Positions 411-8,600 of a stretch of 8,628 bases of DNA are shown one piece after another. The DNA lies in the NCBI GenBank assembly GCA_003144275.1, contig NJBF01000077.1, positions 1 through 8,628 on the forward strand. The letters are read 5' to 3'. Source of the stretch: Candidatus Heimdallarchaeota archaeon B3_Heim. Lineage in GTDB: Archaea > Asgardarchaeota > Heimdallarchaeia > Hodarchaeales > Hodarchaeaceae. Positions within the stretch are counted from its first letter, which is position 1. Each line of letters starts with the position of its first letter. Both the position numbers and the translations under genes were made by a program. The notes below the pieces were generated by a model. It ran no database searches. It had not been told where the DNA came from and was given only the letters and a program-made list of their open reading frames with translations.

Positions 411-1337
411 ATGGGAGAAAAACTAACTACCCCTGTGTTATTCATAGTTTTTAATCGCCCAGATACAACACGGCGAGTTTTTAATGAAATACGGAGAGGT
501 AAACCGACTAAGCTTTTTGTGGCAGCTGATGGGCCAAGAAAAAACAAGAAGGGCGAGAATGAGAGATGTCAAGCAGCAAGGGATATTATCAACCAAGTAG
601 ATTGGGATTGTAAAGTCAAAACACTTTTTAGAGGTAAGAATTTGGGATGTAAAATGGCTGTTAGTTCGGCAATTGACTGGTTTTTTGAAAACGTGGAAGA
701 AGGCATTATTTTGGAGGACGATTGTGTACCGAGTCAAAGTTTTTTTTGGTTTTGTCAGGAGTTACTTGAGAAATACAAAGATGATGAGAGAGTGATGATG
801 ATTAGTGGCACTAATGTAAACATTGAGTGGAAATCAGATTTGCAGGACTATCACTTTTCATATTATGGTGGTATATGGGGTTGGGGAACTTGGAAGAGAG
901 CGTGGAATTATTTTGATGTAGAGATGTCAAAATGGAAAAACACTTACTGGAGAAAACAAATAAAGTATCTAATTGGTGAAAAACAATACAAAGAAAGAGC
1001 GAGGAATTATGAAAAAACATTTACTAAGCAGTTAGATGCGTGGGGCTATGCCTGGAGCTTTGCTAGGTTAATAAATTCTGGGATGTCTGTAGTCCCGTCA
1101 AAAAATCTAATTTCTAATATCGGATTTAATTCTGAAGCAACCCACACAAAAAACATGAGGCATAAAACAAATAATCTAAAAAGATTTGAGATTGAGTTAC
1201 CATTGACCGATAATCCAATAGTTATTGTAGATGGAGATTACGATTATGTTTTTTCAAGCATAAACAATCGAAGCTTATTGAAAAGAACCATAGACAGGGC
1301 TAGAAAAGTATTTCAAAGAATTTATATTAGGTTTTAA
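411..1337 (+). CDS. GT-A fold nucleotide-diphospho-sugar transferase (family often annotated 'hemolytic protein HlpA-like'; distantly GnT-I/GT13-like)
   Basis: 308 aa. Motifs PVLFIVFNRPDTT, LFVAADGPR, VDWDCKVKTLFRGKNLGCK, GIILEDD (DxD-type metal motif, EDD at 714-722), IWGWGTWKRAW, NLISNIGF. Purine-rich GAGGGG at 402-407 upstream of the ATG. Confidence 0.85.
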   Translation: MGEKLTTPVLFIVFNRPDTTRRVFNEIRRGKPTKLFVAADGPRKNKKGENERCQAARDIINQVDWDCKVKTLFRGKNLGCKMAVSSAIDWFFENVEEGIILEDDCVPSQSFFWFCQELLEKYKDDERVMMISGTNVNIEWKSDLQDYHFSYYGGIWGWGTWKRAWNYFDVEMSKWKNTYWRKQIKYLIGEKQYKERARNYEKTFTKQLDAWGYAWSFARLINSGMSVVPSKNLISNIGFNSEATHTKNMRHKTNNLKRFEIELPLTDNPIVIVDGDYDYVFSSINNRSLLKRTIDRARKVFQRIYIRF

Positions 1338-1361
1338 CGATAAACGTACGAGATAAGAAAA

Positions 1362-2315
1362 ATGATAAAACAAGTTAGTATTTTAAACACATCGATTTCC
1401 TCAAATAACTTGGGAGATTATATAATTATGGATTCGGTAAAGAAGGAATTAAATGATATTATGCCAGATAGTTTTTTTGTCGAACTGCAAACACACGACA
1501 AACTTGGAAAAGTTAGTTATAAAAATCTTAAAAAATCAAATCTTTCTATTGTGGGAGGAACGAATCTCTTGTCGTCAAATATGAATTCTTATAATCAGTG
1601 GAAAATTGGATTGATTGACTCAATTTTCTTAAAAGATGTAGTTCTGATGGGCGTTGGATGGTGGCAGTACCAAAAAGATCCAAATCTTTACACTAAAACT
1701 CTGCTTAGAAGGATATTAAGCAAAAAATTCTTGCACGCGGTTAGGGATAACTACACTAAAAGAAAACTCGAATCTATCCGAATCAGCAATGTTATAAATA
1801 CGGGGTGCCCTACGATGTGGAACCTTACCCCAGACCATTGCAAAAAGATACCGAAGATAAAATCAAATAATGTTGTCTGCACCTTCACTGATTACAATAC
1901 CTGTTTAGAAAAAGACAGAAAACTAATTCGGGTATTAAAAAAATGTTATGATAAAATATATGTTTGGATTCAAGGTAGTCAAGATTATGAATACATAAAA
2001 AGGATTTCTGAAAAGGATATTCTAGTTATACCACCCAACTTAGAAGCTTTTAACCGATTGCTTAAATCTGATATAAGTTTAGATTATGTTGGTACAAGAC
2101 TTCATGCGGGGATAAGAGCAATGCAATTCTTCAAACGAGTAATCATAATTGGTATTGATAATAGGTCAATTGAGATTGGAAAGGATTTTAATTTGAAGGT
2201 AATAGAAAGAGATAATATTAAACAACTAGAGAACGAAATCAACAGTAATTTTGAAACAAAATTACATTTACCCTTAGATGATATTGAGAAATGGAGAAAT
2301 CAATTTGATGGGTAA
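1362..2315 (+). CDS. Polysaccharide pyruvyl transferase family protein (PS_pyruv_trans)
   Basis: 317 aa. N-terminal NNLGDYII, GGTNLL, MGVG, AVRD..T, GCPTMW and C-terminal DYVGTRLHAGIRAMQ...IGIDNR match the N.GD / GGG-like / VRD / RLH pattern of this family. Confidence 0.88.
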   Translation: MIKQVSILNTSISSNNLGDYIIMDSVKKELNDIMPDSFFVELQTHDKLGKVSYKNLKKSNLSIVGGTNLLSSNMNSYNQWKIGLIDSIFLKDVVLMGVGWWQYQKDPNLYTKTLLRRILSKKFLHAVRDNYTKRKLESIRISNVINTGCPTMWNLTPDHCKKIPKIKSNNVVCTFTDYNTCLEKDRKLIRVLKKCYDKIYVWIQGSQDYEYIKRISEKDILVIPPNLEAFNRLLKSDISLDYVGTRLHAGIRAMQFFKRVIIIGIDNRSIEIGKDFNLKVIERDNIKQLENEINSNFETKLHLPLDDIEKWRNQFDG

Positions 2316-2340
2316 AGATATAACCTTAATATTATGAAGA

Positions 2341-2350
2341 TTATTTATAG
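2341..2350 (+). promoter_or_regulatory. Possible archaeal TATA box (TTTATA at 2344-2349) with purine-rich BRE-like GAAGA just upstream
   Basis: Lies in the 65-bp AT-rich spacer, 31 nt before the ATG at 2381, a spacing compatible with a short-leader archaeal transcript. Such hexamers also arise by chance in AT-rich DNA. Confidence 0.3.
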
Positions 2351-2380
2351 TGTAATTTCAAATTAATTGCCGTTTCTTAA

Positions 2381-3646
2381 ATGAAAGTAGTAATAGTTAA
2401 CAAATCAGACATTCAGGGTGGAGCTGCTCGGGCAGCCTATAGACTACATACAGGTCTTAGGGAAATCGGTGTAGATTCAAAGATGCTCGTAGATAATAAA
2501 ATAAGTGATGATCCGAACGTTTATGGCCCGGAGGGGAAAATTAATAAGTCATGGAGCAAAGTTCGCCCTTTTATAGATAGAATACCTCTTAAATTATATG
2601 ATTGGCAAAAGACACCATTTCATCCCGCATGGATAGGCAGAAACATAATAGGCCATGAACTAGTCAAGAAAACTGATATTACAAACTTACACTGGATAGC
2701 AGGAGGTTTTCTTTCTATAAGGGGTATCTCGAGCCTTGTTAAGTTAGGTAAGCCTATAGTTTGGACACTCCATGACATGTGGGCCCTTACCGGAGGATGC
2801 CACTACTCAGGAGATTGTGAAAAATATATTGATTCTTGTGGTGCATGTCCTCAGTTAAACTGCGATAAACATAACGATATTACCAGAAAAATTTGGAGGA
2901 GAAAAAAAAGAGCGTATAAAGATTTGGATTTGACAATTGTAACTCCCAGCAGATGGTTGGCTGAGTGTGCCAAAAGAAGTTCATTGTTATCGGATTTAAA
3001 AGTTGAAGTGATACCGAATGGCTTGAATACCAACATATTTAAGCCTATAGAGAAATTGGCAGCAAGGAATATTCTTAATCTCTCCAAAAATAAAAAAATA
3101 ATTTTGATTGGGGCCATGAGTCCAACTACAGACAGGAGAAAAGGTTTCAAATATTTAAAAGAGGCAATTAATAAGCTGGAGAATATGAACGTTTTTAATA
3201 AAGATGAACTATGTCTTGTAACCTTTGGGGCTTCTCATTCCAGAGATATTGAAAAAATTCCCTTTGAAGTAAAATTTCTCGGAAGACTTTACGACGATTT
3301 TTCATTAGCGTTAAGTTATAGTGCGGCTGACATTTTCATGATTCCTTCTCTTCAAGATAATCTTCCAAATACTGTAATGGAATCCCTTTCCTGTGGAACT
3401 CCTGTAGTTGCTTTTAATATTGGTGGAATGCCGGATCTGATTGAGCATAAAAAAAATGGCTACTTAGCAAAGGAGAAAGATCCTAAAGATTTGGCAATTG
3501 GCATTAAATGGATAATTGTGGATGATGAGAGAAGAAAAAAAATTTCAATGAATGCAAGAGAAAAAGCTTTGAGAGAATATACATTGAAAATACAGGCTGA
3601 GCGGTATGTAAATTTATATAAGAGCTTGTTACAAAATAGAATATAG
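2381..3646 (+). CDS. GT4 family glycosyltransferase, WcaC-like subgroup
   Basis: 421 aa. Motifs GGAARAAYRLH, NLHWIAGGFLSI, KPIVWTLHDMW..TGGCHY..DC.KY...CG.CPQL, TPSRWLA, RKGFKYL, PSLQDNLPNTVMESLSCGTPVVAFNIGGMPDLIEHKKNGYLA (D-x7-E donor motif). Confidence 0.92.
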   Translation: MKVVIVNKSDIQGGAARAAYRLHTGLREIGVDSKMLVDNKISDDPNVYGPEGKINKSWSKVRPFIDRIPLKLYDWQKTPFHPAWIGRNIIGHELVKKTDITNLHWIAGGFLSIRGISSLVKLGKPIVWTLHDMWALTGGCHYSGDCEKYIDSCGACPQLNCDKHNDITRKIWRRKKRAYKDLDLTIVTPSRWLAECAKRSSLLSDLKVEVIPNGLNTNIFKPIEKLAARNILNLSKNKKIILIGAMSPTTDRRKGFKYLKEAINKLENMNVFNKDELCLVTFGASHSRDIEKIPFEVKFLGRLYDDFSLALSYSAADIFMIPSLQDNLPNTVMESLSCGTPVVAFNIGGMPDLIEHKKNGYLAKEKDPKDLAIGIKWIIVDDERRKKISMNAREKALREYTLKIQAERYVNLYKSLLQNRI

Positions 3647-3668
3647 GAATAAGAAGAGTCAAAGGACA

Positions 3669-4382
3669 ATGAAGGAGAAATCTATTAATACTGGGTACCC
3701 CAAGTCTGAGGCAGTAGTTTATGATCGGAAGAGATTTTCCGATCCCAAAGGAAGACTATTTAATAAATTAGAAATGCACCAATTAGAACGTATCCTACAT
3801 GTCCTACCGCTCCGGCAACGAATATTAGAGGTAGGATGTGGAACCGGCAGATTTATGGTGAAATGTTTGGAAGCCGGACATGAGGTTCACGGATTGGATC
3901 TCTCACCCCAGATGCTGGAAGAATGCGTTAAGAAAACCTCGAATTTTAAGCAAGTAAACTATTGTTTGGCCGAGGGTTCTAAATTGCCTTTTAAGGACAG
4001 TCAATTTGATTTCGTATATTCGATTAGGACGTTAAATCAGGTTTCGTCAAAGTCCTATGCTTTGGATATGATCCGCGAAATGATTCGAGTGTGTGGCGAT
4101 AATGGGACAATCCTTGTTGAATTCGTTAATAAATGCAGCGTGGCATTAGGTAGATATCGTTCTGTCCAACTCTCGATCAACGATATCAAATCGGTGGTTA
4201 AAAAATACGGAAATGTTGAAATTAAAGATATTTCGGGGATATTGATCTTCTCGCAGACTTTAATGAATCTAACGCCGGTCTTATTATTAGACATATTTGA
4301 AAGATTCGATACCTTTTTTTCCAAAATGTTTCCGGTGCTTTCGACTCGGTCTTATGTTACCCTGCAAAAGAAAGTCTCGTAA
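3669..4382 (+). CDS. Class I SAM-dependent methyltransferase (Methyltransf_11-like small-molecule/glycan methyltransferase)
   Basis: 237 aa. Motif I ILEVGCGTGRF, post-I VHGLDLSPQMLE, motif II LPFKDSQFDFVYS, motif III REMIRVC..NGTILVE. No DPPY/NPPY/PC motif, so not a DNA methyltransferase. AGGA at 3663-3666 before the ATG. Confidence 0.92.
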   Translation: MKEKSINTGYPKSEAVVYDRKRFSDPKGRLFNKLEMHQLERILHVLPLRQRILEVGCGTGRFMVKCLEAGHEVHGLDLSPQMLEECVKKTSNFKQVNYCLAEGSKLPFKDSQFDFVYSIRTLNQVSSKSYALDMIREMIRVCGDNGTILVEFVNKCSVALGRYRSVQLSINDIKSVVKKYGNVEIKDISGILIFSQTLMNLTPVLLLDIFERFDTFFSKMFPVLSTRSYVTLQKKVS

Positions 4383-4420
4383 TCGAAGTGCCGTAGCTAT
4401 AGTAAATAGAAGGGTTTTGT

Positions 4421-5614
4421 ATGATGAAGGTTGGTATATTTGTCGCTGAAGCTAAGTATTCTGTAAATACGTTTAATACCATTTCAGGACATGTACAGGT
4501 GCCTCTCTTAAGCGCCAATATATTAGAAAAACATGGTTATGAGGCTACCCTTATTACCAGTAAAGCTCCTGAGGGATATCAGTTACCCCCCATTGCTTCT
4601 AAAAAGCTAAGTGTAGAAACTGTTATGAGTGTATCTAAAAAATGGCCTAATCAGGGAACTCGACTTTTGAGAGTGCCATTATTGATTAATGAATTGCGAA
4701 AGCTGATATTGTCCTCGAATTTTGATATAATCCACGCCTTTGGAGATATTGAAACTGCTTACCTCTTAGGATTACTCAAAGCTAGGAAGATTTCTACTAC
4801 GGCGTTTATGACATTTCAGAATTTCAGCATCTCGAACTTGCCTTTCGTCAAGTTATTAACCACTAAATTCTTGAAAAACATAGATGCTTTGATAACCCTA
4901 ACAGATTATACAAAGATACAAATGCTTCAGTCAGGTTTAGGTTCAGTTGTCGATAAGAGCAAAGTAGTAGTGATGCAACCAGGGATTGAGAAACAGTTCA
5001 AAATTGATAGGGGGAAGTTACCTTCACTGAATCCTAAACGGTGTGTTCTCTTTTGGCGGAACGCAAATCGAGAAAATGGTGCGGATATATGTGCCGAGGC
5101 TTTTAAACAATTAAGTGGTGAATATCCCGATACTAGCTTTATATTCGCTGTTCGACCGGGCGATGAATATGATGAGGAACTTTCAAGAATTAGCCAAATA
5201 TATGAAAATATTGAACTCTTATTCTATCCCTATACAGACAATATTCGAATGGAAGATTTGCTGACCTCGGCTACGGTAGTTGTTCTCCCATTTCGAAAAC
5301 TTAGTATTAATCCGCAACTTGTAGTTTTAGAGACTTTGGCTAGCGGCACTCCACTTGTTACGACTCCTGTTGAGTCAAACAGAGAGATCATCAAACATCG
5401 TGAAACCGGCATATTAGTTCCACTATCCGTAAACGAGATTGCCGCAGCACTTAGAGAATTATTAAGTAAGCCATCTTTTGCGAGAAAGATAGGCATTAAC
5501 GCCAAATATCACATTCAGAAAGAATGGAATTGGGAAAAATACGGAGAGAAGCTAATAAAGCTGTACGAGGAAGTTAAGATAACTAAACGCAAGTCGAAAA
5601 GATTTAAAGCATAA
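4421..5614 (+). CDS. GT4 (GT-B) family glycosyltransferase, divergent
   Basis: 397 aa. MKVGIFV start, FDIIHAFG, DALITLTDYTK, MQPGI, C-terminal VVVLPF...LVVLETLASGTPLVTTPVESNREIIKHRETGILVP...IAAALRELL and WNWEKYGEKLIKLYEEV. The start could be either ATG of ATGATG. Confidence 0.85.
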   Translation: MMKVGIFVAEAKYSVNTFNTISGHVQVPLLSANILEKHGYEATLITSKAPEGYQLPPIASKKLSVETVMSVSKKWPNQGTRLLRVPLLINELRKLILSSNFDIIHAFGDIETAYLLGLLKARKISTTAFMTFQNFSISNLPFVKLLTTKFLKNIDALITLTDYTKIQMLQSGLGSVVDKSKVVVMQPGIEKQFKIDRGKLPSLNPKRCVLFWRNANRENGADICAEAFKQLSGEYPDTSFIFAVRPGDEYDEELSRISQIYENIELLFYPYTDNIRMEDLLTSATVVVLPFRKLSINPQLVVLETLASGTPLVTTPVESNREIIKHRETGILVPLSVNEIAAALRELLSKPSFARKIGINAKYHIQKEWNWEKYGEKLIKLYEEVKITKRKSKRFKA

Positions 5615-5639
5615 TCATCAAAAGAGCAGGGTTAATTTT

Positions 5640-6503
5640 ATGCATAACACATCACGCAAACTAGAAGGTGGGCTCCGGACTAACGGTCTGTTCAATAAAA
5701 AGTCTGAACCAGATAAACCTTTAATTAGCGCAATAACCATAGTTTTTAATGGTGAGAAATATCTCGAACAGACAATTCAGAGTGTTATAAATCAAACTTA
5801 CGATAATATTGAATACATTATGATTGACGGCGGTTCTACTGATGGAACACTGGATATTATCAGAAAATATGAAGATAAAATTGCCTACTGGGTTAGTGAG
5901 AAGGATGAGGGAATAGGTGATGCTTTTAATAAAGGGATAAAGCTATCATCGGGTGAAATTATAGGTATAATTCATTCAGATGATTATTATGCCAGTAAGG
6001 ACGTCGTCTGTAAGGTAGTTAATAAGTTCAATAAATATCAAAATATAAAAGCTATTTACGGAATAATCGATTTTGTAGATCCAAAAACTAATGAGCTTGA
6101 ACTAAGATGGGGTAAAGATTGCAGTCCAAATGAAATTAAGAAAAGAATGTATATTCCTCATCCAACATTATTTTGTAAAAAAGAAGTTTGTAAGAATATA
6201 GGTTATTTCAGAAAAGACCTTAAATATGCGATGGATTATGAATGGGCAATCAGACTGGTAAAATATACTAAACCTTACTTTCTAAACAAAAGAATTGCCG
6301 TAATGAGAAGAGGCGGAATCAATATGAGAAATATTAAAAACACTTTTTGGGAAGCGTCTAAGAGTCTATGGGAAAATGGATACTATATGGATGCAATTAT
6401 AATGATTATTAGGAGTAATGTTAAAGATGCTATGGAGAAAGTCATACGAAAACTTAGATTAAATATTGTTATAAAAAAATATCATAATATGAAAAAGTAC
6501 TGA
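5640..6503 (+). CDS. GT2 family glycosyltransferase, WfgS/WcaE-like subgroup
   Basis: 287 aa. PLISAITIVFNGEKYLEQTIQSVINQTYDNIEYIMIDGGSTDGT, WVSEKDEGIGDAFNKGI, IIHSDD (DxD-equivalent), IPHPTLFCKK, KYAMDYEW. Short N-terminal extension with EGGLR. Confidence 0.93.
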   Translation: MHNTSRKLEGGLRTNGLFNKKSEPDKPLISAITIVFNGEKYLEQTIQSVINQTYDNIEYIMIDGGSTDGTLDIIRKYEDKIAYWVSEKDEGIGDAFNKGIKLSSGEIIGIIHSDDYYASKDVVCKVVNKFNKYQNIKAIYGIIDFVDPKTNELELRWGKDCSPNEIKKRMYIPHPTLFCKKEVCKNIGYFRKDLKYAMDYEWAIRLVKYTKPYFLNKRIAVMRRGGINMRNIKNTFWEASKSLWENGYYMDAIIMIIRSNVKDAMEKVIRKLRLNIVIKKYHNMKKY

Positions 6504-6510
6504 CTTTCAT
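6489..6510. terminator. Weak AT-rich hairpin covering both convergent stop codons; possible shared termination zone
   Basis: ATGAAA-AA-GT-actg-AC-TTTCAT (8 bp stem, 2-nt bulge). There are oligo-T tracts downstream on each strand: T6 at 6559-6564 on +, and T5 at 6492-6496 and T7 at 6473-6479 on -. Confidence 0.2.
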
Positions 6511-8600
6511 TTATGCTGATATAGTGCTGCCCCATCATTATCATAAATTTGGTTAGAGTTTTTTATGAAGGGAAGCGAGTACTTATATTTATTTGCTCTT
6601 TTCCGAGCAACATCAGATATAAGGTAATATTTTGCATTTGAAGCATTGCTAAAGGATATGTTCCCCAACGAATCAAAATTAGAATTGTATCTAAAAGCAG
6701 CCCTTACACGGCCGAGAGGTCCTGCCCATATAGTTGTTTTCTTAAGATTTGATTCCATCCAATTCATGGCAATTTTTTCTTCCTTTGAATAAAATATCCA
6801 TCTATTGGATACTGACGGATCACATGTTGACTTCACTAGCGAGTTTATTGACCATATGATAATTAAGATGATAAACAATATTTCTCCAGTAAGTTGCCAC
6901 CTTTTGATATCCAACTGATGTATCCATTTTAAGATTATCATGCTGGCTAAAGCTACGGCAAAAAACATAAAGTATGGGAAAATTCTTAGTTCAAAATTGT
7001 TTGCAACGCCAGTTCCAATGATTTTGTCCAGAAATATTGTTATTAAAAGTAAGAGAAAGAATGAAACATAAAATGAAAATAAAAATAAAAAGTGAAGGGG
7101 ATTGGAAGAAAGATTTTTCTTTTGGATAAAATCCCAGATAATAGTCAAAGCCATAATTAAAGAGAGAGGAAAAATTATCCAATTAAATAGCATCAAAAAC
7201 ATCCAGATAAATGGGGGGAAGGAAAGATCGGATGAGATCGAAAGAATATGCAATCCGAATACATAGGTAAGTAACCCAAAGCCGCAAGCTGCATATATGC
7301 CCATGCGATAAGACTTATTAGAACGTATTTTTTCAGAAAACCTCATAATCAGATTTTTCAAAGCAGGCATGATTGGAACTTTGAAAAAGATGAAAAGCAG
7401 GAACAGTGACACAATTATGATTAATGTCGCAATGCCAAGCGGTATTGAAGTTGGATGAAGCGCTATTAATTTATTTTTCCAAGTATTAATGTGATTCTTC
7501 TGCGACACCCATAAGATAGGATATATATATGAACAGATAGAATAGTATATTGGAATGCAAGGAATCACGATATATGACATCTTCTTATAAGCCGGACTAC
7601 TCACACCCAAAAGCTTAGAAAAAAAGAAACCAATCATACAGGCAAAAATCATGCTAATGATGATAGCCGCTGAAAACCACTTGTTAAAGGAAGTTAATGA
7701 TAATACGGTCATATAAAAAAGTGCAAGATACAAAACGAATTTCTTATCATCCCTTTTAAGTGAAATCAATCGTATCAGGATGAAAAATGTCATCAATGCA
7801 AGGAAAAATATAAATCGTTCGTGTGAGCCGCGACTGGTGAAAAACAATAAACCTGGCTGCAGAGTTAAAAGGAATGTGGCAAGCAATGCTATCTTTTTAT
7901 CTCTAATTAATTCAACAAATAGTGGATAGGCTATTGTTAGATATAAAAAACCCGTCGGTAATATTAACAACTTCTGAATGGATAAATCTGTAATATTTGA
8001 TAAAAAAGTTACTACAACTTGAAATCCAAAGCCACTGCTATACTGATAGGTGGTAAATATTGTGGCTTGGCTCTTTACTGCCTGGATTGTTTTTGTAATC
8101 ATTCCCATGTCACCATCAGCTATTAATCCAGAATATCGTAATGAGAAGTATAAACAAGATAAGAATCCGTAAAATGATATTAATAATAGAGAATTAAAAG
8201 TAGATCTATCTATTGGAATACTCTTATGTTCTGTGACAGCAGTTTCTCTTCTTGCAGCAGTTACAGCAGCGAAAACCAATGTGAATGAAGATATTGCCAA
8301 CAAAATCGGACCCAGCCTAATTCCCCAGGGAGTATAACTTAATACTAACCCAGTAATTACTACTACTGCGATACTCAATCCTATGCTAAGAGCGATTCTT
8401 TCTATTGCATCCATTTCATTTTTTTTGGGAAATAAGGCACAAATGAGGGAATATCCCGGTAGGAATAATACCAGAGGGAAGCCTACTATTATTCGTAGTG
8501 GCGTGGCATTTAATGGCGGAACCACAATGAAAATCACGGATACTAACACAAAGACTATTATAGCTATAAATTCTTTTGGCACTCGTCCTTCTGGATTCAT
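6507..8600 (-). CDS. Polytopic membrane protein: N-terminal DUF1616-type module plus predicted GT-C-like glycosyltransferase body
   Basis: 697 aa, about 16-18 hydrophobic segments. Residues ~9-118 (VPPLNATPLRIIVGFPLVLFLPGYSLICALFP...DAIERIALSIGLSIA...YTPWGIRL.PIL) are typical DUF1616. The remainder has an acidic loop DGD (162-164), YSSGF, SHE (259-261), ELRIFPY (537-543) and a soluble C-terminal domain (EEKIAMNWMESN...IYDNDGAALY). The frame stays open to the window edge, but the ATG at 8600 fits the domain start and has an SD-like AAGGT 7 nt upstream. Confidence 0.8.
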   Translation of the reverse strand: MNPEGRVPKEFIAIIVFVLVSVIFIVVPPLNATPLRIIVGFPLVLFLPGYSLICALFPKKNEMDAIERIALSIGLSIAVVVITGLVLSYTPWGIRLGPILLAISSFTLVFAAVTAARRETAVTEHKSIPIDRSTFNSLLLISFYGFLSCLYFSLRYSGLIADGDMGMITKTIQAVKSQATIFTTYQYSSGFGFQVVVTFLSNITDLSIQKLLILPTGFLYLTIAYPLFVELIRDKKIALLATFLLTLQPGLLFFTSRGSHERFIFFLALMTFFILIRLISLKRDDKKFVLYLALFYMTVLSLTSFNKWFSAAIIISMIFACMIGFFFSKLLGVSSPAYKKMSYIVIPCIPIYYSICSYIYPILWVSQKNHINTWKNKLIALHPTSIPLGIATLIIIVSLFLLFIFFKVPIMPALKNLIMRFSEKIRSNKSYRMGIYAACGFGLLTYVFGLHILSISSDLSFPPFIWMFLMLFNWIIFPLSLIMALTIIWDFIQKKNLSSNPLHFLFLFSFYVSFFLLLLITIFLDKIIGTGVANNFELRIFPYFMFFAVALASMIILKWIHQLDIKRWQLTGEILFIILIIIWSINSLVKSTCDPSVSNRWIFYSKEEKIAMNWMESNLKKTTIWAGPLGRVRAAFRYNSNFDSLGNISFSNASNAKYYLISDVARKRANKYKYSLPFIKNSNQIYDNDGAALYQHK

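What the first reader, a model, noticed from the sequence alone, without database searches (positions are those of the whole stretch)
6507..8600. DUF1616 fused to a GT-C-like transferase body: a possible functional clue for an uncharacterised domain
Seen: after the four DUF1616 helices and a short polar linker (RRETAVTEHKSIPIDRS) comes a GT-C-like pattern. This comprises a TM helix, a long loop with D162-G-D164 (8109-8117) plus a helix and YSSGF, a TM pair ending in SRGSHE (E261, 7818-7820), a late ELRIFPY (R539, 6984-6986), then a soluble domain starting KSTCDPSVSNRWIFYSKEEKIAMNW. Established: GT-C enzymes place catalytic or metal-binding acids in the first external loop and a second short loop, and often carry a late R-x-x-P motif. 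As I recall, typical DUF1616 proteins instead continue into one helix and a beta-rich external domain. No WWDYG/WWDxG motif is present, so this is not AglB. Inference: a new GT-C subfamily in which DUF1616 acts as a carrier-binding, partner-recruiting or oligomerisation module.
Basis: partly seen in the sequence, partly recalled or inferred. Interest (0 to 1): 0.72.

Follow-up and report, generated by a model that had tools for sequence, protein, structure and literature searches.

The report
STT3-like glycosyltransferase fused to half of DUF1616
This gene encodes a membrane sugar-transferring enzyme, a distant and unnamed relative of the N-glycosylation enzyme STT3/AglB, fused to the four-helix half of the function-less protein DUF1616. 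The same enzyme family lies next to DUF1616 genes in other microbes, which gives DUF1616 a first testable role in cell-surface glycosylation.

Summary
ORF 6507-8600 (-) encodes a 697-aa protein. Residues 14-125 match only the first 124 of 307 positions of Pfam DUF1616, which are its four TM helices. Residues 126-697 match no Pfam or NCBIfam model but fold with high confidence as a GT-C glycosyltransferase. The closest solved structures are STT3/AglB (Z 24-29), and hhalign against STT3 gives 92% probability. D164, R257, H260, E261, D525, N535, R539 and K590 are 94-100% conserved in 149 relatives and lie on the outer face. D162 is only acidic-preferred. WWDYG is absent, and the genome has a separate canonical AglB.

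The body family is large (430 representatives) and mostly stand-alone. The fusion occurs in about 15 metagenomic sequence clusters.

Two new points emerged.
- In 5 of 6 fused relatives, a divergent upstream gene encodes the missing C-terminal half of DUF1616. DUF1616 is therefore split there.
- In 8 of 10 Chloroflexota loci, a full DUF1616 gene lies immediately downstream of the stand-alone enzyme.

This supports a two-part GT-C/DUF1616 system. Donor, acceptor and physical contact are untested.

Earlier notes of this scan describe the same pairing on other DNA. I found no publication on it.

The parts
6507..8600 (-). Whole gene, 697 aa plus stop: DUF1616 N-module fused to a GT-C glycosyltransferase
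8226..8561 (-). DUF1616 N-terminal module (residues 14-125): four TM helices with a conserved LPGY kink (P48, G49, Y50), S72 and R117
   Evidence: Pfam E 1e-37, model positions 1-124 of 307. Conservation in 123 modules. Separate model with pLDDT 83.
8208..8249 (-). Short polar linker (residues 118-131), predicted cytoplasmic, joining the module to TM1 of the enzyme
   Evidence: pLDDT below 50 at residues 118-124. Loop charge count.
6828..8207 (-). GT-C transmembrane core (residues 132-591): 13 predicted TM helices including a 2-helix insertion
   Evidence: AF2 model pLDDT 85.5. VIA Z 24-29 to STT3/AglB. hhalign to STT3 at 92% probability.
7956..8135 (-). First external loop (residues 156-215) with the [E/D]162-x-D164 motif (8109-8117), Y187 and G190. 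D164 is the candidate catalytic or metal-binding Asp.
   Evidence: D164, Y187 and G190 are invariant in 149 sequences. D164 aligns with the STT3 EL1 Asp of the FDP motif.
7818..7832 (-). Second short external loop R257-G-S-H260-E261
   Evidence: R257 148/149, H260 148/149, E261 140/149. Aligns with the STT3 G-F-F-D-N-E motif, E261 to the invariant Glu.
7209..7460 (-). Insertion specific to the fused clade (about residues 381-464), with two extra hydrophobic helices, inside the long external loop region. Low model confidence.
   Evidence: Gaps in stand-alone homologues. pLDDT 58-69.
6984..7028 (-). Conserved polar cluster D525 ... N535 ... R539 at the outer ends of two late TM helices. Candidate phosphate-binding site for the lipid carrier (inferred).
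   Evidence: D525 144/149, N535 148/149, R539 148/149. Topology.
6510..6827 (-). C-terminal external alpha/beta domain (residues 592-697) with conserved P595, N599, W601, E608, W614, W625 and R631. It occupies the place of the STT3 domain that carries WWDYG but has no such motif.
   Evidence: (aligned through residue 697 to STT3/AglB)
411..6503 (+). Convergent glycan-assembly cluster: unclassified 308-aa protein, pyruvyl transferase, GT4, methyltransferase, GT4, and a GT2 (TuaG/WcaE-like) ending 3 bp from the stop of the GT-C gene
   Evidence: The GT2, methyltransferase and GT4 order is conserved next to fused relatives.

Best explanation
**Shown.** The gene encodes a polytopic membrane glycosyltransferase of the GT-C(A) structural class. 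It belongs to a large unnamed family that is a distant sequence and fold relative of the oligosaccharyltransferase STT3/AglB/PglB. The protein has about 17 TM helices, with the N-terminus inside. The invariant EL1 Asp (D164), the R-G-S-H-E loop, the D525/N535/R539/K590 cluster and a 106-aa C-terminal domain all face outside.

**Shown by comparative genomics.** This enzyme family is genetically coupled to DUF1616.
- In Chloroflexota, a complete DUF1616 gene directly follows the enzyme gene.
- In the window's clade, DUF1616 is split. Its four-helix N-module is fused to the N-terminus of the enzyme. Its other half (one TM helix plus an Ig-like outer domain) is a separate divergent gene next door in relatives. 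In the window itself the contig ends 28 bp upstream of the start codon, so that gene cannot be seen.

**Inferred.**
- The enzyme and DUF1616 form one two-part machine, and the four-helix module is the piece that contacts the enzyme's TM domain.
- The enzyme takes a polyprenyl-(pyro)phosphate-linked glycan, built by the adjacent cytoplasmic GT2/GT4, methyl- and pyruvyl-transferases and flipped by a Wzx-type flippase. It transfers that glycan at the outer membrane face to an acceptor that is not an N-x-S/T sequon.
- The DUF1616 outer domain helps to bind or position the acceptor or product.
For: **Fold.**
- AF2 model has pLDDT 85.5 and pTM 0.85.
- Foldseek PDB hits with E <= 1e-3 are all GT-C enzymes.
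- VIA-align gives STT3/AglB Z 24-29 with about 420 residues aligned over model residues 124-697. PMT scores 20-22, PglB 21, ArnT 20 and DPY19 18.
- Swiss-Prot models give the same order, and the Atlas neighbours carry GT-C families.

**Sequence.**
- hhalign of the family against Asgard STT3 gives 92% probability, E 5.5e-7.
- D164 pairs with the STT3 EL1 Asp, and E261 with the invariant Glu of the D-N-E motif.
- Catalytic-site conservation is shown, and the outside-facing topology (20 K/R in 85 loop residues inside, against 5 in 59 outside).

**Coupling to DUF1616.**
- Pfam matches the N-module.
- N-module identity among fused relatives is equal to or above whole-protein identity.
- A divergent ~271-aa gene lies upstream in 5 of 6 relatives with visible upstream DNA.
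- That gene is homologous to the DUF1616 C-half: Pfam model positions 154-236 at E 3e-5, hhalign 84%, and shared invariant EF..Y, YR and H.W motifs.
- A full DUF1616 gene lies immediately downstream in 8 of 10 Chloroflexota loci and 3.6 kb away in a ninth.
- It is the only DUF1616 match in 5 of 5 of those genomes.
- DUF1616 also lies in the same cluster in archaeal locus L049 and directly after a distant GT-C relative in Asgard locus L006.

**Context.** The enzyme sits in GT2/GT4-rich clusters with Wzx flippase, pyruvyl transferase and sugar-nucleotide genes.
Against: - No biochemical or genetic data exist for any member.
- Physical contact between the module, the enzyme and the C-half protein is not shown. 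I could not inspect inter-domain confidence in the model.
- The closest stand-alone archaeal relatives (L048, L074, and L051/L072 as far as visible) have no DUF1616 gene in the visible flanks. The pairing is therefore strong in Chloroflexota but not universal.
- The four-helix module is promiscuous. It occurs alone, in 2-4 tandem copies, and at the N-terminus of large unrelated surface proteins. That also fits a generic anchor.
- The partner C-half gene was not found in this genome assembly.
- The gene family was not found in 20 of 20 same-genus genomes, so the 8.6-kb contig is either a strain-specific island or possibly mis-binned. Its composition is compatible with the genome but not distinctive.
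- Fold similarity to STT3 does not tell donor type.
Confidence: 0.6

Rival explanations
1. The enzyme is a monosaccharide-adding GT-C, working like PMT, ArnT or Haloferax AglS. It would take one sugar from a polyprenyl-monophosphate sugar and decorate an already exported glycan or protein. DUF1616 would be an accessory.
For: Most GT-C families use monophosphate-sugar donors (established knowledge). PMT, ArnT and DPY19 also score Z 18-22. A conserved GT2 lies convergent and adjacent.
Against: That GT2 is best matched by TuaG/WcaE/EpsE-type cytoplasmic repeat-unit transferases, not by polyprenyl-phosphate sugar synthases. In L008 the typical trio of GT2, small DUF2304 membrane protein and GT-C belongs to a different PMT_2 enzyme. 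The best fold and only detectable sequence relatives are STT3-type en-bloc transferases.
Confidence: 0.2
2. The enzyme is the glycan polymerase of a Wzx-dependent pathway, doing the job of Wzy. DUF1616 would act like a co-polymerase or chain-length partner.
For: The clusters have a Wzx flippase and many repeat-unit transferases. In L049 no other candidate polymerase is visible. The pairing of a membrane enzyme with a partner that has an outer domain recalls Wzy/Wzz (established knowledge).
Against: L008 and L068 each carry a further unassigned protein of 431-434 aa beside the PMT_2/flippase genes; the L008 one has 8 predicted TM helices (not computed for L068), and either could be the polymerase. 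There is no Pfam match to Wzy_C or EpsG, and no Wzy-type structure appears among the listed fold matches. That absence is only weak evidence.
Confidence: 0.15
3. The enzyme is an active GT-C, but the fused four-helix module is only a generic membrane anchor or stabiliser picked up by chance. On this view the fusion says nothing specific about DUF1616 function.
For: The module is found alone, tandemly repeated and fused to unrelated large surface proteins. The fusion is confined to about 15 sequence clusters. None of the other 150 best family representatives has it.
Against: An enzyme with 13 TM helices needs no extra anchor. The module is at least as conserved as the enzyme within the clade. 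The missing DUF1616 half is encoded next door in 5 of 6 relatives. Complete DUF1616 genes follow the stand-alone enzyme in 8 of 10 Chloroflexota loci.
Confidence: 0.15
4. The protein is not an enzyme at all but a transporter or flippase.
For: It is a large polytopic membrane protein in a glycan cluster. MurJ and Wzx structures appear far down the Foldseek list (E above 0.1, TM 0.11-0.14).
Against: All significant fold matches are GT-C enzymes. Residues conserved at 94-100% sit at the outer membrane interface, as in GT-C active sites. Separate Wzx genes exist in related islands.
Confidence: 0.03

Closest known systems
STT3 / AglB / PglB oligosaccharyltransferase catalytic subunits (GT66, Pfam PF02516)
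   Same: They are the best structural match over the whole body, including the C-terminal outer domain (Z 24-29). They are also the only family with detectable profile similarity (hhalign 92%). The EL1 Asp and the Glu of the second acidic loop are at equivalent positions. Both have the N-terminus inside and the C-terminal domain outside.
   Different: There is no Pfam STT3 match, no WWDYG motif, and no conserved Glu seen in the long loop region. The enzyme is shorter, about 530 aa when stand-alone. It has family-specific R257/H260, N535/R539, K590 and S-N-x-W motifs. It pairs with DUF1616. The host genome has its own canonical AglB.
PMT / PMT_2 / ArnT / DPY19 GT-C(A) enzymes (GT39, GT83, GT98)
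   Same: They share the same fold class (Z 18-22) and have an acidic residue in the first external loop. Atlas structural neighbours of the protein carry PMT_2 in part.
   Different: No Pfam match. They score lower than STT3, and for PMT the match stops before the C-terminal domain (model residues 127-601).
Canonical DUF1616 proteins (PF07760 / COG4743), for example Haloferax volcanii HVO_2173, a membrane N-glycoprotein (PMC8241124)
   Same: Residues 14-125 are a bona fide copy of the four-helix N-module and keep all of its conserved residues.
   Different: The fifth helix and the beta-rich outer domain (model positions 125-307) are missing from this protein. In relatives they are encoded by a separate divergent gene.
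Multi-component transmembrane glycosylation systems (GtrA/GtrB/GtrC, ArnC/ArnEF/ArnT; reviewed in PMC8035078)
   Same: The logic is the same: a GT-C enzyme working with a small multi-helix membrane partner encoded next to it.
   Different: The N-module shows no detectable fold or sequence relation to solved small partners (best PDB Z 7.5, generic helical bundles). DUF1616 additionally has an Ig-like outer domain.

Membership tests
GT-C superfamily, GT-C(A) structural class | Polytopic membrane protein whose fold superposes on solved GT-C enzymes | tested here: met
   Z 24-29 to STT3/AglB and 18-22 to PMT, PglB, ArnT and DPY19. All Foldseek hits with E <= 1e-3 are GT-C enzymes.
GT-C superfamily, GT-C(A) structural class | Conserved acidic residue in the first long extracytoplasmic loop after TM1 | tested here: met
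   D164 is 149/149 and position 162 is E or D in 125/149. The loop is predicted outside. D164 aligns with the STT3 EL1 Asp.
GT-C superfamily, GT-C(A) structural class | Use of a polyprenyl-phosphate-linked sugar donor | not testable with these tools
   Needs biochemistry.
STT3/AglB/PglB (GT66, PF02516) | Match to the STT3 Pfam model | tested here: not met
   No PF02516 hit at E <= 0.1. The genome's true AglB scores 155.7 bits.
STT3/AglB/PglB (GT66, PF02516) | WWDYG motif in the external C-terminal domain | tested here: not met
   No WWD string in the protein. The family consensus at that place is S-N-x-W-x-F-Y. The own-genome AglB has WWDYG.
STT3/AglB/PglB (GT66, PF02516) | Second acidic metal-binding motif (D-x-D, D-x-E or D-x-H) in the short loop after TM3 | tested here: inconclusive
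   hhalign pairs S259-H260-E261 with the STT3 D-N-E motif, so only the Glu is shared.
STT3/AglB/PglB (GT66, PF02516) | Conserved Glu of the TIXE/SVSE motif in the long external loop EL5 | tested here: inconclusive
   No invariant Glu is listed between positions 360 and 465 in 149 sequences. That region is poorly aligned and poorly modelled.
DUF1616 (PF07760) | N-terminal four-TM module (model positions 1-124) | tested here: met
   E 1e-37, 130 bits, above the 31.6-bit cut-off.
DUF1616 (PF07760) | Fifth helix plus beta-rich outer domain (model positions about 125-307) | tested here: not met
   The Pfam match ends at model position 124. A local HMM of canonical proteins covers only positions 4-127.
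PMT / PMT_2 / ArnT (PF02366, PF13231) | Match to the family HMMs | tested here: not met
   No hit at E <= 0.1. Other genes of the same genome do match PMT_2.
Wzy / O-antigen ligase type (PF04932 and relatives) | HMM match or fold match | tested here: inconclusive
   No Pfam hit and none among the listed fold matches. An unlisted family is not excluded.

The most novel reading that the evidence does not exclude
The GT-C/DUF1616 pair may be a second, sequon-motif-free class of oligosaccharyltransferase or glycan ligase, shared by archaea and monoderm bacteria. This is the kind of enzyme still missing for AglB-independent N-glycosylation. One example is the Agl15 pathway of Haloferax volcanii, whose transferase 'remains to be identified' (PMC8241124). 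In this reading DUF1616 is the enzyme's acceptor-handling subunit.
Probability: 0.12. Interest if true: 0.85.

Novelty: new variant of a known kind. Interest (0 to 1): 0.6.

Why it matters
DUF1616 is a widespread membrane-protein family, mostly archaeal, with more than 1,700 sequence clusters found here. It has no assigned function, and full-text search found only one paper that mentions it, and only as a glycoprotein in a table.

The enzyme family is also unnamed, although it has hundreds of diverged members in archaea and Chloroflexota. Three observations converge on one testable statement, that DUF1616 is the dedicated partner of an STT3-like glycosyltransferase:
- the fusion in this window;
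- the split DUF1616 gene in its relatives;
- the tight gene pair in Chloroflexota.

This offers a concrete entry point to surface glycosylation that does not depend on AglB. It also points to which half of DUF1616 touches the enzyme. The case sits in a genome that earlier scan notes assign to a Heimdall-type Asgard archaeon, a lineage whose glycosylation machinery matters for eukaryote origins. However, the gene looks like an accessory island, not a lineage trait.

Tried and rejected
- **Co-folding.** Complex prediction on the cognate N-module (P0008 residues 1-131) with the C-half protein P0272 returned 'no answer' (score 0.01, controls not run). This is neither for nor against binding.
- **Fold of the N-module alone.** The best solved-structure match was Z 7.5 to generic helical bundles. 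AFDB clusters returned only other DUF1616 modules. No link to GtrA-like or other known small partners could be made.
- **Sequence searches against the PDB.** Neither the protein nor the family profile found anything meaningful.
- **The search for related loci.** The broad alignments A2 and A9 had no usable conserved stretch. With A1 the scan found no confirmed locus. Only the narrower A10 worked.
- **The search for homologous proteins with profile A2.** It returned only the fused clade and no named organisms.
- **Partner gene in this genome.** tblastn of the C-half protein against the assembly gave nothing. Because the contig ends 28 bp upstream of the start codon, this does not show absence.
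- **Is the architecture simply Pfam DUF6541?** DUF6541 gave only sub-threshold hits on DUF1616 modules. No bona fide DUF6541 was found in five Chloroflexota genomes, so this stayed unresolved.
- **Frameshift or assembly chimera.** Rejected, because about 15 independent clusters share the architecture.
Full report
**1. What is there**

The window is a whole 8,628-bp contig, C95, of a 3.95-Mb, 103-contig genome. Earlier scan notes call this genome a Heimdall-type Asgard archaeon; I did not verify that here.

Six co-directional genes on the + strand (411-6503) encode:
- an unclassified 308-aa protein;
- a pyruvyl transferase;
- a GT4;
- a methyltransferase;
- a second GT4;
- a GT2 that is best matched by TuaG/WcaE/EpsE-type repeat-unit transferases.

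The finding is the convergent gene 6507-8600 (-), which encodes 697 aa. Its stop lies 3 bp from the end of the GT2 gene.

**2. Two parts**

Pfam DUF1616 matches residues 14-125 (E 1e-37), but only to model positions 1-124 of 307. This is the four-helix N-terminal module. Residues 126-697 match nothing in Pfam or NCBIfam.

A search of 1.84 billion representatives with the body alone found 430 relatives at E <= 1e-3. Most are 510-560 aa and stand-alone, and the sampled ones also lack Pfam domains. Only about 15 metagenomic clusters, at 45-92% identity, share the fused architecture. None of the other best 150 representatives carries a DUF1616 segment. The fusion is therefore real but a small side branch.

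**3. The body is a GT-C enzyme closest to STT3**

- An AlphaFold2 model built on a 149-sequence alignment has pLDDT 85.5 and pTM 0.85.
- Every Foldseek PDB match with E <= 1e-3 is a GT-C glycosyltransferase.
- VIA-align gives Z 24-29 for yeast and human STT3 and for Archaeoglobus AglB. About 420 residues align across model residues 124-697, including the C-terminal domain.
- Other GT-C enzymes score lower: PMT 20-22, PglB 21, ALG12 20.7, ArnT 20, AftA 19 and DPY19 18.
- Swiss-Prot models rank the same way. The ESM Atlas neighbours carry PMT_2, DUF2206, DUF6541 and DUF2079 in part.

The profile-profile comparison used the family against 27 Asgard STT3 sequences taken from the genome's own phylum. 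It gives 92% probability (E 5.5e-7) over 167 columns spanning TM1-TM5. D164 aligns with the STT3 'FDP' Asp of the first external loop. G258...E261 aligns with 'GFFDNE', so E261 matches the invariant Glu.

The protein is not AglB:
- it has no STT3 Pfam match;
- it has no WWDYG;
- the genome has one canonical AglB with WWDYG on contig C88, plus several PMT_2 enzymes.

**4. Conservation and topology**

| Position | Conservation in 149 sequences |
|---|---|
| D164, Y187, G190 | 149 |
| R155 | 147 |
| R257, H260 | 148 each |
| E261 | 140 |
| D525 | 144 |
| N535, R539, K590, P595 | 148 each |
| W601 | 145 |
| 162 | E 84, D 41 |

The motif is therefore [E/D]-x-D, not D-x-D.

I took helices from the model and assumed the N-terminus is inside. 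Short cytoplasmic loops then hold 20 K/R in 85 residues, against 5 in 59 for short outer loops. All conserved polar residues and the 106-aa C-terminal domain fall outside.

The fused clade has an extra segment, about residues 381-464, with two hydrophobic helices. It is modelled with low confidence.

**5. The DUF1616 module**

The module has four helices with an invariant G49-Y50 inside a conserved LPGY kink, and the fused protein keeps all of its conserved residues. Modelled alone it reaches pLDDT 83. It resembles no solved structure above noise.

In databases it occurs in several settings:
- alone;
- in canonical proteins of about 295 aa;
- in 2-4 tandem copies ahead of a canonical DUF1616;
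- at the N-terminus of large surface proteins.

Within the fused clade it is at least as conserved as the enzyme. For the more distant members, module identity is 61-86% against 49-71% for the whole protein.

**6. The key comparative result**

*Split DUF1616 in the fused clade.* In relatives of the fused gene with visible upstream DNA, 5 of 6 have a divergent gene of about 271 aa. These are L008, the P0007 contig, L009, L011 and L068; the exception is L010. Its product is one TM helix plus a beta-rich domain, and it is homologous to the C-terminal half of DUF1616:
- Pfam model positions 154-236, E 3e-5;
- hhalign 84%, E 7e-6;
- shared invariant motifs at both ends of the domain.

In this clade DUF1616 is therefore split, with one half fused to the enzyme and the other half encoded next door. 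In the window the contig ends 28 bp upstream of the start codon, so this gene cannot be seen. It was not found elsewhere in the assembly.

*Gene pair in Chloroflexota.* Ten Chloroflexota (Anaerolineae) genome loci carry stand-alone family members.

| Arrangement | Loci (of 10) |
|---|---|
| Complete DUF1616 gene immediately downstream, same strand | 8 |
| DUF1616 gene 3.6 kb downstream | 1 |
| None within 10 kb | 1 |

In the five genomes searched whole, it is the only DUF1616 match.

*Other loci.* An archaeal metagenome locus (L049) has a 1,059-aa DUF1616 protein at the head of the same cluster. A distant GT-C relative in another Asgard genome (L006) is directly followed by a DUF1616 start.

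The closest stand-alone archaeal relatives (L048, L074, and L051 and L072 as far as visible) show no DUF1616 nearby. The coupling is therefore frequent but not universal.

**7. Context and likely role**

Fused and stand-alone members always lie in GT2/GT4-rich glycan clusters. These carry sugar-nucleotide genes, often a Wzx-type flippase and a pyruvyl transferase.

In L008, the classic trio of GT2, a small DUF2304 protein and a PMT_2 GT-C is present as a separate unit. The GT2 next to our gene is of the cytoplasmic repeat-unit type.

Together with the STT3 affinity, this favours transfer of a flipped, lipid-linked glycan to an outside acceptor over single-sugar decoration. A polymerase role is also possible. 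Neither donor nor acceptor is shown.

**8. Status of the gene in its genome**

The family was not found in 20 same-genus genomes. It gave only five weak hits among 300 genomes of the phylum.

Contig GC is 0.351 against 0.361 for the genome. Tetranucleotide correlation is 0.96, at the 14th percentile of same-size pieces. This fits the genome without proving membership. The gene is either part of a strain-specific glycan island or sits on a mis-binned contig.

**9. What is known**

Full-text search found a single paper mentioning DUF1616. It lists Haloferax volcanii HVO_2173 as an AglB-dependent N-glycoprotein with two or more TM helices. The same paper states that the oligosaccharyltransferase of the AglB-independent Agl15 pathway is still unidentified.

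Earlier notes of this scan describe GT-C plus DUF1616 pairs, 'sometimes fused', in Chloroflexota, Actinobacteria and archaea. My independent tests agree with them. The specific additions here are the half-fusion and the split C-half gene.

**10. Verdict**

The GT-C reading is supported, and the role of the module is narrowed but not proven. This is a new family-level variant of a known enzyme class, with a previously function-less partner. Limits: no experiment exists, there is no access to inter-domain model confidence, and the one co-folding job gave no answer.

Noticed in passing
P0165-P0200 (database proteins): Many long 'DUF1616' proteins of Methanobacterium and relatives carry 2-4 tandem copies of the four-helix module ahead of one complete DUF1616. 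The module behaves as a repeatable unit.
   Followed up: partly
P0167, P0169, P0185, P0199: The first ~110 positions of Pfam DUF6541, a family whose members look GT-C-like in the Atlas, give sub-threshold hits on DUF1616 four-helix modules. DUF6541 may itself begin with a related module. No bona fide DUF6541 was found in five Chloroflexota genomes.
   Followed up: partly
window 7209-7460 (-), residues ~381-464: This insertion is specific to the fused clade. It has two extra hydrophobic helices and a K/R-rich connecting loop inside the long loop region of the enzyme. Model confidence is low and its role is unknown.
   Followed up: no
window 411-1337 (+): A 308-aa protein at the head of the glycan cluster has no Pfam or NCBIfam family. 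There is only a sub-threshold GT25 hit around an E-D-D motif. It is possibly an unclassified GT-A-type transferase.
   Followed up: no
L008:1156-2460 (-) and L068:99-1394 (-): These are unassigned proteins of 431-434 aa next to the Wzx flippase and/or PMT_2 genes in islands of fused relatives. The L008 one has 8 predicted TM helices. They are candidates for a polymerase or a further GT-C.
   Followed up: partly
L008:8358-8902 (-) and L068:1750-2486 (+): Small toxin-antitoxin-like genes (an RHH/CopG-type gene, and an NTP_transf_2 plus HEPN pair) sit inside the glycan islands next to the C-half gene or PMT_2 gene. This hints that the islands are mobile or variable.
   Followed up: no
P0139 (1429 aa) and P0143 (1458 aa): In these giant proteins the GT-C body lies far from the N-terminus. 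P0139 also has a CARDB (Ig-like) domain. Locus L048 has an 816-aa CARDB protein inside the cluster. Ig-like outer domains seem to accompany this enzyme family in several forms.
   Followed up: no
L006:1417-3586 (+), another genome of the same phylum: A distant GT-C relative (610 aa, E 2e-6 to the family profile) is directly followed by the start of a DUF1616 gene, which is cut by the end of the fetched locus.
   Followed up: partly
G000 versus 20 same-genus genomes: The enzyme family was not found in any of the 20 same-genus genomes searched. The whole contig may be a strain-specific island or mis-binned.
   Followed up: partly
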